Source of the DNA: a virus
Reading direction: 5' to 3' (one strand)
DNA: 64,000 nucleotides
Virus record (IMG/VR): IMGVR_UViG_3300025840_000013
The notes beneath the pieces were generated by a model. That model did not search any database. It was not told where the DNA came from and saw only the letters and a program-made list of their open reading frames with translations. A program made the translations under genes and the position numbers. Below, piece by piece: positions 7,183 through 14,005 of the stretch. Each line of letters starts with the position of its first letter. Position 1 is the stretch's first letter.

Positions 7183-7211
7183 TTGACAATATGTTTCATA
7201 TATGGTACATT
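7183..7211 (+). promoter_or_regulatory. sigma70 promoter for the tRNA cluster
   Basis: TTGACA-17-TACATT just upstream of tRNA-Arg. Confidence 0.7.
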
Positions 7212-7569: not shown

Positions 7570-7773
7570 ATGCAAGTATCACCAGTATCGCCAGTAAGAA
7601 TTGTGAGTGAGTATGTTAGACAACTGAATGTCGGTGATAAAATTCATAACATTGTAGTAACACATAAAGATTTTGGAGGCTCTGTTAGAGTTGAAGAAGT
7701 TTATAGAACATACGATAAAACTGGAAAGATAAGAACAGTCGAACCAGTTAGTAAAGTTGATGTTGAAGTTTAG
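7570..7773 (+). CDS. hypothetical protein within the tRNA cluster
   Basis: GGAG SD; TAG stop abuts the 5' end of tRNA-Gly. Confidence 0.65.
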   Translation: MQVSPVSPVRIVSEYVRQLNVGDKIHNIVVTHKDFGGSVRVEEVYRTYDKTGKIRTVEPVSKVDVEV

Positions 7774-7847: not shown

Positions 7848-7855
7848 AAAATAAA

Positions 7856-8026
7856 AATCCAAGGTGACGGCCTGTGGATTGTGGTGACTGAATAATCCCT
7901 TGCAAATGGGGATAAGGTAATGTCGAAGGAACTTAGCGGTTCGTCTTAGCGGATGCAGACAGGTATGAGTCAAGTTAGACAGGAAGTTTGCCAGTGACTC
8001 GTTGCAGGATCCTAACCCTGCCCACA
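7856..8026 (+). ncRNA. candidate multi-stem ncRNA with twin CTTAGCGG hairpins (possibly manA-like)
   Basis: At least seven helices, duplicated loop, GCAAAT/GTTTGC pseudoknot; family assignment not verified. Confidence 0.6.
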
Positions 8027-8038
8027 CTAATAAATTTC

Positions 8039-8118
8039 TAAGTACACATGAGAGTAGATGCACCTACTTTCCTGTGCATAGGACAAGGGTTTGAAAGACT
8101 GCAAGTCATGTGTATTTA
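8039..8118 (+). ncRNA. candidate kissing-loop RNA
   Basis: 13-bp closing stem; two hairpins whose loops ATGCAC and GTGCAT are exact reverse complements. Confidence 0.55.
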
Positions 8119-8127
8119 AAAATTTAT

Positions 8128-8204
8128 CGGGGTATAGCGCAGTCTGGTAGCGCATCTGCTTTGGGAGCAGAGGGTCGTTGGTTCGAATCCAGCTACCCCG
8201 ACCA
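8128..8204 (+). tRNA. tRNA-Pro(TGG)
   Basis: CGGGGTA/TACCCCG acceptor, TCTGC-TTTGGGA-GCAGA, CCA. Confidence 0.97.
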
Positions 8205-13467: not shown

Positions 13468-13661
13468 AAATAAGTTGGGGTTACTTTATAAGTATCCCCA
13501 TGTCTTCTTACTTTATCCTTCTATTCCTCTTGGGTTTATTTGGAAAAAGTTTAATGATATTTACACCAGAAAAAAATATAGTAATGTATGAGTTTTTTGG
13601 TGTTGTATTAATACATTATATTTTTTATATTATTTTTTGCTTGACAAAAAGAAAAGAATAG
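13464..13661 (+). CDS. small two-TM protein with basic C-terminus (holin candidate)
   Basis: ATGA overlap with the endolysin; two hydrophobic helices, ends TKRKE. Confidence 0.4.
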   Translation: MKISWGYFISIPMSSYFILLFLLGLFGKSLMIFTPEKNIVMYEFFGVVLIHYIFYIIFCLTKRKE

Positions 13662-13671
13662 TGTATAAATA
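13641..13671 (+). promoter_or_regulatory. composite sigma70 / T4 late promoter for the tmRNA
   Basis: cTTGACA-17-TATAAA where the -10 box is part of TATAAATA. Confidence 0.75.
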
Positions 13672-13674
13672 CAG

Positions 13675-13980
13675 TTGTAATTGTTGATACGATTCAACAT
13701 ACATACTGGACTTGGGGGCAGTACCCAACGCCTCCACCATAAGCACATCCGTAAGGCGCAGTAAGGTTCCCAACGGATTACCGTAGAAGACTACGCAGGG
13801 TGTGTTTATGATGGGGGCGAACTAGGATCGACAGGTGTGTAGAGATGAGAGTAGATTACCGTGTTGACCTACGATATTCGGTCGAACAAAACTAAACGCA
13901 AACGATAACTTTGCACCTGAGTTTGCTCTAGCAGCATGATCAGCGGGGTATGGGTTCCACCTTGTTACCAAACGGGCCCG
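13675..13980 (+). ncRNA. ssrA: circularly permuted two-piece tmRNA, alphaproteobacterial type
   Basis: Acceptor piece ends GGAC-TTGGG-GGCAGTA-CCCAA-CGCCTCC-ACCA (13739); coding piece starts GGGGGCG (13813) with a G3.U pair; tag ORF 13898-13939 ANDNFAPEFALAA*; outer ends approximate. Confidence 0.93.
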
Positions 13981-14005
13981 CAGTCATAGTAAAAGGATTT
14001 AATAA

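What the first reader, a model, noticed from the sequence alone, without database searches (positions are those of the whole stretch)
8039..8118. 80-nt kissing-loop RNA between tRNAs
Seen: 13-bp closing stem TAAGTACACATGA/TCATGTGTATTTA; hairpin AGTAG-ATGCAC-CTACT next to TCCT-GTGCAT-AGGA; the two 6-nt loops are exact reverse complements; a weak third hairpin around GTTTGAAAGAC. Inference: a compact tertiary-folded RNA (aptamer-, ribozyme- or decoy-like) released when tRNA-Pro is processed. The alternative simple ATGCAC/GTGCAT hairpin could make it a switch.
Basis: partly seen in the sequence, partly recalled or inferred. Interest (0 to 1): 0.7.

Follow-up and report, generated by a model that had tools for sequence, protein, structure and literature searches.

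The report
Phage RNA cassette with kissing loops
The 80-base stretch is a real, conserved small RNA found only in aquatic phage sequence: a hairpin-closed cassette that usually sits in the cut-out spacer of phage tmRNA genes and here lies in a tRNA cluster, with two loops that stay complementary as they mutate; its job is unknown.

Summary
The closing stem is longer than reported: 22-nt arms at 8030-8051 and 8106-8127 fill the gap between a manA-like RNA and tRNA-Pro. Pattern scans recovered 59 distinct relatives from phage and metagenome contigs, and none from 185,579 prokaryote genomes. Most relatives are the intervening segment of permuted phage tmRNA genes; others lie between tRNAs or after an unknown RNA. 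All share a nearly invariant 36-nt core: two adjacent hairpins with complementary hexaloops, then a hypervariable GNRA-type hairpin, inside a variable closing helix. In 51 distinct sequences the loop-loop pairing is 100% kept, with two compensatory changes and three wobble changes. Both small hairpins also show compensatory changes. The RNAfold minimum-energy helices are broken in relatives. In closely related phages the locus lacks the cassette, or lacks both cassette and manA. With at most one linker nucleotide, both hairpins and a six-pair kiss probably cannot coexist within one molecule. I therefore favour pairing between molecules, or an alternating fold. The function is unknown. No Rfam family matches. 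The wider class of stem-closed cassettes in tmRNA spacers and tRNA arrays was noted earlier in this scan on other phage DNA.

The parts
8030..8051 (+).
   Evidence: Inverted repeat I1, 22 nt, 91% complementary; fold z -4.3. In L139, C8038 becomes T and repairs the single C.A mismatch.
8052..8052 (+). Invariant junction G; it may pair with U8069 and stack hairpin 1 on P1
   Evidence: Invariant in 51 sequences. RNAfold pairs it with U8069.
8053..8068 (+). Hairpin 1: stem 8053-8057/8064-8068, hexaloop L1 8058-8063
   Evidence: 99.6% of cells paired. Loop-closing pair changes G-C to U-A in L371. U-A/U.G polymorphism at 8055/8066.
8069..8069 (+). Single invariant U between hairpins 1 and 2
   Evidence: Invariant column 31.
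8070..8083 (+). Hairpin 2: stem 8070-8073/8080-8083, hexaloop L2 8074-8079
   Evidence: 97.5% of cells paired. Two pairs changed on both sides (C-G to U-A in L309; U-A to C-G in L371). The top pair is non-standard in 5 sequences.
8058..8079 (+). Loop-loop pairing K: L1 8058-8063 with L2 8074-8079, six pairs
   Evidence: 100% paired in 51 distinct sequences. Pair 8060/8077: G-C 44, A-U 7. Pair 8062/8075: A-U 48, G.U 2, U-A 1. Pair 8063/8074: C-G 50, U.G 1. None of 500 shuffles reached the whole-structure values.
8084..8087 (+). Invariant junction CAAG
   Evidence: Invariant columns 46-49.
8088..8100 (+). Hairpin 3: 3-4 bp stem with a GNRA-like loop, hypervariable in sequence
   Evidence: 33 distinct versions, 30 of which fold as 3-5 bp hairpins with 3-5 nt loops; many changes on both sides.
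8101..8105 (+). Second junction, N + CAAG
   Evidence: CAAG conserved in 50 of 51 sequences. One window-lineage haplotype has A8104 changed to T.
8106..8127 (+). 3' arm of P1; it ends one base before the 5' end of tRNA-Pro
   Evidence: In L139, A8108 to G and A8122 to G both give U.G wobbles. tRNA-Pro starts at 8128.
7859..8031 (+). Upstream neighbour: manA-like RNA. It is not part of the cassette
   Evidence: RF01745, 44.4 bits, E 1.5e-9, full model length. Homologous loci carry manA without the cassette.
8128..8204 (+). Downstream neighbour: tRNA-Pro (UGG). Its RNase P site would define the cassette's 3' end
   Evidence: ARAGORN and Rfam tRNA.

Best explanation
The stretch 8030-8127 is one copy of a phage-specific, modular small RNA, a stem-closed cassette. 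Its usual home is the intervening segment that is cut out of circularly permuted phage tmRNA precursors.

In this phage lineage a copy has been inserted between a manA-like RNA and tRNA-Pro. It is transcribed with the tRNA cluster. I infer that RNase P frees it by cutting at 8127/8128, and that trimming on the other side runs up to its 22-bp closing helix, which would protect the ends.

The functional part is the nearly invariant 36-nt core. It consists of two adjacent hairpins whose hexaloops pair with each other, next to a variable GNRA-type hairpin, all meeting at a four-way junction.

Shown here:
- family membership;
- the insertion polymorphism;
- selection on all the helices, including the loop-loop pairing;
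- restriction to phage and metagenome sequence.

Inferred:
- release as a stable RNA;
- loop pairing between molecules. The hairpins are joined by at most one nucleotide, so the loops most likely pair head-to-tail between molecules, giving a closed dimer or a chain. Phage-associated manA, ROOL and GOLLD RNAs were recently shown to assemble this way. I give this about 40%.
- otherwise the core alternates between the two-hairpin form and a pseudoknot form.

The cellular role is unknown.
For: - Homologues: 69 IMG/VR contigs and 77 metagenome contigs match loop-free patterns, giving 59 distinct cassettes. The covariance model scores members at 73-106 bits and everything else at 29 bits or less.
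- Contexts: permuted tmRNA spacers confirmed by ARAGORN (L212, L232, L238, L282, L309); between tRNA-Pro and tRNA-Asn (L315) with the same outer stem as the window; between tRNA-Trp and tRNA-Ser (L314); after an unknown RNA and before a terminator (L242).
- Covariation: K is 100% paired with 2 pairs changed on both sides; hairpin 1 has 1 such pair and hairpin 2 has 2. None of 500 shuffles reached the observed whole-structure values, and slid controls fall to 21-48% paired. Hairpin 3 has 33 versions.
- Strand: the many G.U pairs would be C.A on the other strand.
- Insertion states: tRNA-Gly and tRNA-Pro only 8 nt apart (L006, L007); manA only (L056, L074, L140-L142); manA plus cassette (window lineage).
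- The P1 stem keeps the tmRNA-spacer signature found in 34 phage tmRNA genes with at least 14 unrelated interiors.
- Absent from 185,579 prokaryote genomes.
- Precedent for quaternary kissing loops: bioRxiv 10.64898/2026.07.01.735769 for manA; PMC12286853 for ROOL and GOLLD.
Against:
- The core is so conserved that compensatory events are few: about 2 for K, 1 for hairpin 1 and 2 for hairpin 2.
- Members were collected with patterns that fixed parts of the core, so divergent members may be missing.
- Covariation cannot tell pairing within a molecule from pairing between molecules, nor simultaneous helices from alternating ones.
- The steric argument is reasoning from helix geometry, not a model.
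- In the window lineage most haplotypes weaken hairpin 1 (U.G, then A.C) without compensation.
- In one context the cassette is followed by a terminator rather than an RNase P site, so release by tRNA processing is not universal.
Confidence: 0.55

Rival explanations
1. The loop complementarity works within one molecule as a conformational switch or pseudoknot. The core alternates between the two-hairpin (cloverleaf-like) form and a form in which the six-pair helix K forms with only one of the two hairpins. This could gate processing of the neighbouring tmRNA or tRNA, or binding of a partner.
For: All three helices covary, as expected if each forms at some time. Nested energies are close: -24.0 kcal/mol for the two-hairpin state against -23.1 for the K state in the window copy, and within 1-4 kcal/mol in eight other members. 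K plus one hairpin is sterically feasible, because a 5-6 nt linker is then free (inference).
Against: No ligand, protein or processing step is known that would need a switch. The cassette works in unrelated contexts (tmRNA spacer, tRNA gaps, before a terminator), so a context-specific gate is unlikely. The two-hairpin state is the predicted minimum in most members.
Confidence: 0.3
2. It is a compact monomer in which both hairpins and the six-pair kiss form together.
For: It is the simplest reading of covariation in all three helices. A four-way junction can lay adjacent arms side by side.
Against: In fully paired hexaloop kisses known to me (TAR-TAR*, ColE1), the stems stack coaxially on the loop helix. 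That would put the two stem bases about 40 A apart, yet here they are joined by 0-1 nt (8069). The lysine riboswitch needs a long stem and a K-turn to kiss within one molecule. This rests on my knowledge and inference; it was not modelled.
Confidence: 0.12
3. It is only a processing spacer or a neutral insertion: a long hairpin that separates manA RNA from tRNA-Pro, with an interior of no consequence.
For: Close relatives do without it. tmRNA spacers carry many unrelated interiors in the same closing stem.
Against: The 36-nt interior is nearly invariant across copies whose closing stems, third hairpin and flanking genes all differ. Its few changes are overwhelmingly pair-preserving. A filler would drift.
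Confidence: 0.05
4. It is a DNA-level mobile element (MITE-like or attC-like inverted repeat), or an expression platform or terminator of the manA RNA.
For: Terminal inverted repeats, presence/absence polymorphism, and different insertion sites.
Against: It is single-copy in the window. It always lies in the sense direction inside RNA transcription units. It has strand-specific G.U pairs and GNRA-type loops. No terminator-like site was found. 120 other manA loci lack anything similar downstream, and most cassettes have no manA nearby.
Confidence: 0.03

Closest known systems
Intervening segment of circularly permuted (two-piece) tmRNA genes (Keiler, Shapiro and Williams 2000, from my knowledge; tmRNA database paper PMC11915505)
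   Same: 35 of 59 distinct relatives are exactly this segment: between the CCA end of the acceptor piece and the 5' G of the coding piece, removed by tRNA-processing enzymes. The window copy keeps the spacer-type closing stem.
   Different: The literature treats the segment as a discarded spacer. PMC11915505 reports only a tRNA-Ala and a repeat inside such segments. Here the interior is a conserved, covarying RNA that also occurs outside tmRNA genes, and the window copy lies in a tRNA cluster.
Phage T4 stable RNAs C and D (species 1 and 2) and the phage T5 stable RNAs in tRNA regions (my knowledge, not tested)
   Same: Small non-tRNA RNAs co-transcribed and processed with phage tRNA clusters, with function still unknown.
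   Different: Those RNAs are not known to share a module with tmRNA spacers or to have complementary loops.
Self-assembling phage-associated RNAs: manA (bioRxiv 10.64898/2026.07.01.735769), ROOL and GOLLD (PMC12286853)
   Same: Encoded in phages, often beside tRNA genes. They are held together by kissing loops between molecules. One conserved loop-loop covariation in ROOL, first read as tertiary, proved quaternary. A manA-like RNA lies directly upstream of this cassette.
   Different: Those RNAs run from under 200 nt (manA) to more than 800 nt (GOLLD) with many interfaces, and their assembly is shown by cryo-EM. This one is about 80 nt with one complementary loop pair, and its assembly is only inferred.
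   Same: Two mutually complementary loops in one RNA that cannot pair within the molecule and so link copies into dimers or rings.
   Different: No sequence or fold relation and no Rfam hit. pRNA acts on the packaging motor. Nothing links this cassette to packaging.
3'ETS-leuZ, an sRNA sponge released from an E. coli tRNA precursor (my knowledge)
   Same: A functional RNA that is a by-product of tRNA precursor processing.
   Different: That RNA is unstructured and acts by base-pairing to sRNAs. No targets are known here.

Membership tests
This cassette family (covariance model R1, built here from 51 relatives) | Closing helix P1 of at least 11 bp around the core | tested here: met
   22-nt arms 8030-8051/8106-8127. 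Relatives have 11-29 bp.
This cassette family (covariance model R1, built here from 51 relatives) | Conserved 36-nt core: two hairpins with complementary hexaloops, then the CAAG junction | tested here: met
   The window copy scores 98.1 bits over the full model. It is one of the sequences the model was built from, so it matches by construction. Members range 73-106 bits and non-members 29 or less.
This cassette family (covariance model R1, built here from 51 relatives) | Variable third hairpin followed by a second CAAG | tested here: met
   8088-8105.
tmRNA intervening segment | Lies between the CCA end of the acceptor piece and the 5' end of the coding piece of a permuted tmRNA | tested here: not met
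   The window copy lies between manA-like RNA and tRNA-Pro. The window's own tmRNA (13637-13982) carries a different interior.
manA RNA (RF01745) | Match to the Rfam model | tested here: not met
   The model match ends at 8031. Nothing from manA covers 8039-8118.
tRNA or tRNA-like gene | Cloverleaf recognised by ARAGORN or Rfam tRNA | tested here: not met
   No call at 8030-8127.
Known self-cleaving ribozymes and riboswitches in Rfam 15 | Match to any of 4227 models at E up to 10 | tested here: not met
   Only chance-level hits: TEG147 at 18.8 bits and mir-210 at 13.9 bits.
Intrinsic terminator | GC-rich stem followed by a U tract | tested here: not met
   No terminator-like site at the element. 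The 3' arm is followed by A-rich sequence.
Kissing-loop interaction | Loop complementarity kept by compensatory change | tested here: met
   G-C to A-U (7 sequences), A-U to U-A (1), three wobble changes, none broken among 51.
Kissing-loop interaction | Loops physically paired, within or between molecules | not testable with these tools
   Needs probing, native gels or a structure.
T4 RNA C/D-type stable RNA | Accumulates as a discrete stable RNA after tRNA-cluster processing | not testable with these tools

The most novel reading that the evidence does not exclude
The cassette is a self-assembling RNA. Its two hexaloops cannot meet within one molecule, so each pairs with the other loop of a second copy. 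This would build a closed antiparallel dimer or longer chains. Hairpin 1 plus the kiss plus hairpin 2 comes to about 16 bp, roughly 1.5 A-form turns between the two junctions. That would make it the smallest natural member of the newly recognised class of phage RNA assemblies (manA, ROOL, GOLLD), delivered by tmRNA and tRNA processing.
Probability: 0.3. Interest if true: 0.85.

Novelty: new variant of a known kind. Interest (0 to 1): 0.68.

Why it matters
The spacer cut out of two-piece tmRNA and the gaps in phage tRNA arrays are usually treated as waste. This finding shows that one such waste sequence is a sharply conserved, covarying RNA. It has been moved between tmRNA genes and tRNA clusters, and it was found only in phage and metagenome sequence.

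It gives a compact, about 80-nt, experimentally tractable case for two open questions:
- What do the unexplained small RNAs of phage tRNA regions do?
- How widespread are RNA-RNA assemblies among phage non-coding RNAs?

It also supplies a ready covariance model for annotating the family.

Tried and rejected
- RNAfold minimum-energy fold of the 80 nt: its two inner helices are broken in relatives, so it is rejected.
- BLAST of 7848-8127 against 50,697 phage records: nothing. The nearest held virus record, G001, has no match.
- 120 manA loci: none has a similar element downstream, so the cassette is not a manA appendage.
- A 15-mer from hairpin 3: all 63 hits outside the window lineage are chance.
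- Second copy in the window: none.
- The covariance model over about 1.5 Mb of fetched phage loci (L201-L386; L001-L200 were not searched): no intermediate-scoring distant relatives.
- Prokaryote genomes: 5 pattern hits, all chance by the model.
- Two pattern hits (L326, L350) were excluded as non-members because they lack P1 and the second CAAG. That criterion is independent of the loops.
- The idea that complementary loops are a general design of tmRNA-spacer interiors: not seen in 21 other distinct spacer sequences (about 14 interior types) under my criteria.
- L316 joins the window-type 5' half to a tmRNA 3' half at a contig end. I treat it as a probable assembly chimera across the shared core, not as evidence.

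Full report
**Observation.** It has a 13-bp closing stem with one G.U. Hairpin 1 has its stem at 8053-8057/8064-8068. Hairpin 2 has its stem at 8070-8073/8080-8083. The two hexaloops, 8058-8063 and 8074-8079, are exact reverse complements. A third small hairpin lies at 8088-8100. The inverted repeat reaches further out than reported, with arms 8030-8051 and 8106-8127, 22 nt and 91% complementary. The hairpin therefore fills the whole gap between a manA-like RNA and tRNA-Pro. The manA match covers 7859-8031 at 44.4 bits, below Rfam's cut-off of 55.2, E 1.5e-9. tRNA-Pro starts at 8128. The 101-nt fold has z = -4.3, against -2.2 for the 80 nt alone. Two adjacent hairpins with exactly complementary hexaloops arose in 3 of 300,000 shuffles of the interior. 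A bare 6-nt inverted repeat arose in about 15%.

**Setting.** The window belongs to a marine or estuarine T4-like myovirus. It has a gp32-like protein 55% identical to those of cyanophages, gp5- and gp6-like baseplate proteins, and about 36% G+C. It carries five tRNA genes and a permuted, alphaproteobacterial-type tmRNA. A sigma-70-like promoter lies at 7183-7211. No terminator-like site lies at the element.

**Close relatives and insertion states.** Thirteen IMG/VR contigs carry the same locus at 97-100% identity. Three states exist:
- tRNA-Gly and tRNA-Pro only 8 nt apart (L006, L007);
- tRNA-Gly, manA, 4 nt, tRNA-Pro, with no hairpin (L056, L074, L140-L142);
- manA plus hairpin (the window lineage).

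The hairpin is therefore a separate, lineage-specific unit. Within the lineage, three changes in the closing stem of L139 all preserve or repair pairing. The 3' arm of hairpin 1 drifts from U-A to U.G and then to an A.C mismatch, without compensation.

**Finding the family.** Notes from earlier agents of this scan described stem-closed cassettes shared by tmRNA spacers and tRNA arrays, and pointed to a tmRNA spacer in another genome that shares words with my stretch. I tested this lead. A pattern joining the tmRNA 3' end to the closing-stem signature found 34 phage tmRNA genes, where I estimate well under one by chance. Their interiors fall into about 15 unrelated types, counting this family. 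One of them, L212, is a clear homologue of my element.

I then ran three further scans. One left both loops free, one left both stems free, and one on metagenomes left the loops and three stem positions free. Together they gave 59 distinct members. Two pattern-only hits lack the closing helix and the second CAAG, and were set aside on that ground. A covariance model built from 51 distinct members scores members at 73-106 bits and everything else at 29 bits or less. The window has one copy, at 98.1 bits. The same pattern found only chance hits in 185,579 prokaryote genomes.

**Architecture.** The parts, in order, are:
- P1, variable in sequence and length;
- an invariant G;
- hairpin 1, one U, hairpin 2;
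- an invariant CAAG;
- hairpin 3, with 33 versions that nearly all form a 3-4 bp stem with a GNRA-like loop;
- N plus CAAG;
- the return strand of P1.

In tmRNA genes, P1 runs on through the ACCA/UGAU internal loop into the acceptor stem. This gives about 21 bp in the precursor.

**Contexts.**
- 35 distinct members are tmRNA intervening segments, with ARAGORN confirming the genes tested.
- L315 lies between tRNA-Pro and tRNA-Asn and has the same outer stem as the window copy.
- L314 lies between tRNA-Trp and tRNA-Ser.
- L242 follows a promoter and an unknown RNA of about 200 nt, and precedes a terminator.

**Covariation (alignment A2, 51 distinct sequences).**
- The loop-loop helix is paired in 100% of cells. 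Pair 8060/8077 is G-C in 44 and A-U in 7. Pair 8062/8075 is A-U in 48, G.U in 2 and U-A in 1. Pair 8063/8074 is C-G in 50 and U.G in 1.
- Hairpin 1 is 99.6% paired, with one G-C to U-A change.
- Hairpin 2 is 97.5% paired, with C-G to U-A and U-A to C-G changes. Its top pair is non-standard in five sequences.
- None of 500 shuffles reached the observed values, and slid controls fall to 21-48% paired.
- The loops were unconstrained in two of the three scans, so their complementarity is not an artefact of the patterns.
- The A-U loop variant occurs in one clade, so I count about two independent compensatory events and three wobble events in the kiss.
- The inner helices of the RNAfold minimum are broken in L212 and are rejected.
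- The many G.U pairs fix the RNA to the + strand.

**How the helices can coexist.** In nested folding the two-hairpin, cloverleaf-like state is the minimum or close to it in eight of the nine members tested (not in L130, the window-lineage copy with the weakened hairpin 1). The K-only state lies 1-4 kcal/mol higher in eight of the nine. RNAfold pairs G8052 with U8069, which stacks hairpin 1 on P1. In the fully paired hexaloop kisses I know of (TAR-TAR*, ColE1), both stems stack coaxially on the loop helix. The stem bases are then about 40 A apart. Here they are joined by 0-1 nt. This is inference from helix geometry, not a model. It leaves three readings:
- pairing between molecules;
- an alternation between the two-hairpin form and a pseudoknot of K with one hairpin;
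- least likely, a strained all-in-one fold.

manA RNAs, the family of the RNA lying directly upstream here, form pentamers and 60-mer cages through kissing loops between molecules (bioRxiv 10.64898/2026.07.01.735769). ROOL and GOLLD, phage RNAs often found near tRNA islands, form cages, and one of their loop-loop covariations, first read as tertiary, is quaternary (PMC12286853).

**Comparison with what is known.** No Rfam 15 family matches. The 2025 tmRNA database paper describes the intervening segment as absent from mature tmRNA. It mentions only a tRNA-Ala and a repeat found inside such segments. The nearest functional analogues are the unexplained stable RNAs of the T4 and T5 tRNA regions, which I cite from my own knowledge. 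Complementary loops are not a general property of tmRNA-spacer interiors: 21 other distinct spacer sequences (about 14 interior types) lack them under my criteria.

**Verdict.** This is a real, conserved structured RNA found only in phage and metagenome sequence. Still to be shown are the function, the release as a stable RNA, and whether the kiss is within or between molecules. The broader cassette phenomenon was already noted by this scan on other phage DNA. New here are this interior family, its covariation-supported loop pairing, and the tRNA-cluster copy.

Noticed in passing
window 7859-8031: A manA-like RNA (RF01745, 44.4 bits, below the 55.2 cut-off) lies between tRNA-Gly and the cassette. 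A related version (L056, L074, L140-L142) has a very different 3' half and abuts tRNA-Pro directly. Of 125 manA-pattern sites in fetched phage loci, 14 have a tRNA within 600 nt.
   Followed up: partly
window 13740-13812: The window's own tmRNA intervening segment has the same closing-stem signature but an unrelated interior. The identical interior occurs in L203, L208 and L228, attached to a different tmRNA coding piece. This is consistent with interiors being swapped.
   Followed up: partly
L002-L004, L130, L132, L135, L138 (between tRNA-Pro and tRNA-Asn): Some close relatives carry an extra tRNA-Cys (GCA) of about 77 nt between tRNA-Pro and tRNA-Asn. It is absent from the window.
   Followed up: no
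L316:27-107 (metagenome contig Ga0075515_10947049, at the contig end): The 5' half of the cassette and its upstream flank match the window locus, while the third hairpin, 3' stem and downstream sequence are those of a tmRNA coding piece. This is either an assembly chimera across the shared 37-nt core or a real recombinant.
   Followed up: no
L242:3440-3870 (- strand): A non-coding unit of about 400 nt: a sigma-70-like promoter, an unannotated RNA of about 200 nt with no Rfam match, the cassette with a closing stem of about 26 bp, then an intrinsic terminator.
   Followed up: no
window 7570-7773 and 7774: A 67-codon ORF ends at the base before tRNA-Gly starts, so the mRNA and the tRNA/ncRNA cluster are probably one transcript. 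A promoter-like site (TTGACA, 17 nt spacer, TACATT, with TG) lies at 7183-7211, ahead of tRNA-Arg.
   Followed up: no
L292:4980-5062: A freshwater-2 RNA (RF02980, 58.9 bits) lies about 1.5 kb from a cassette copy in a phage contig.
   Followed up: no
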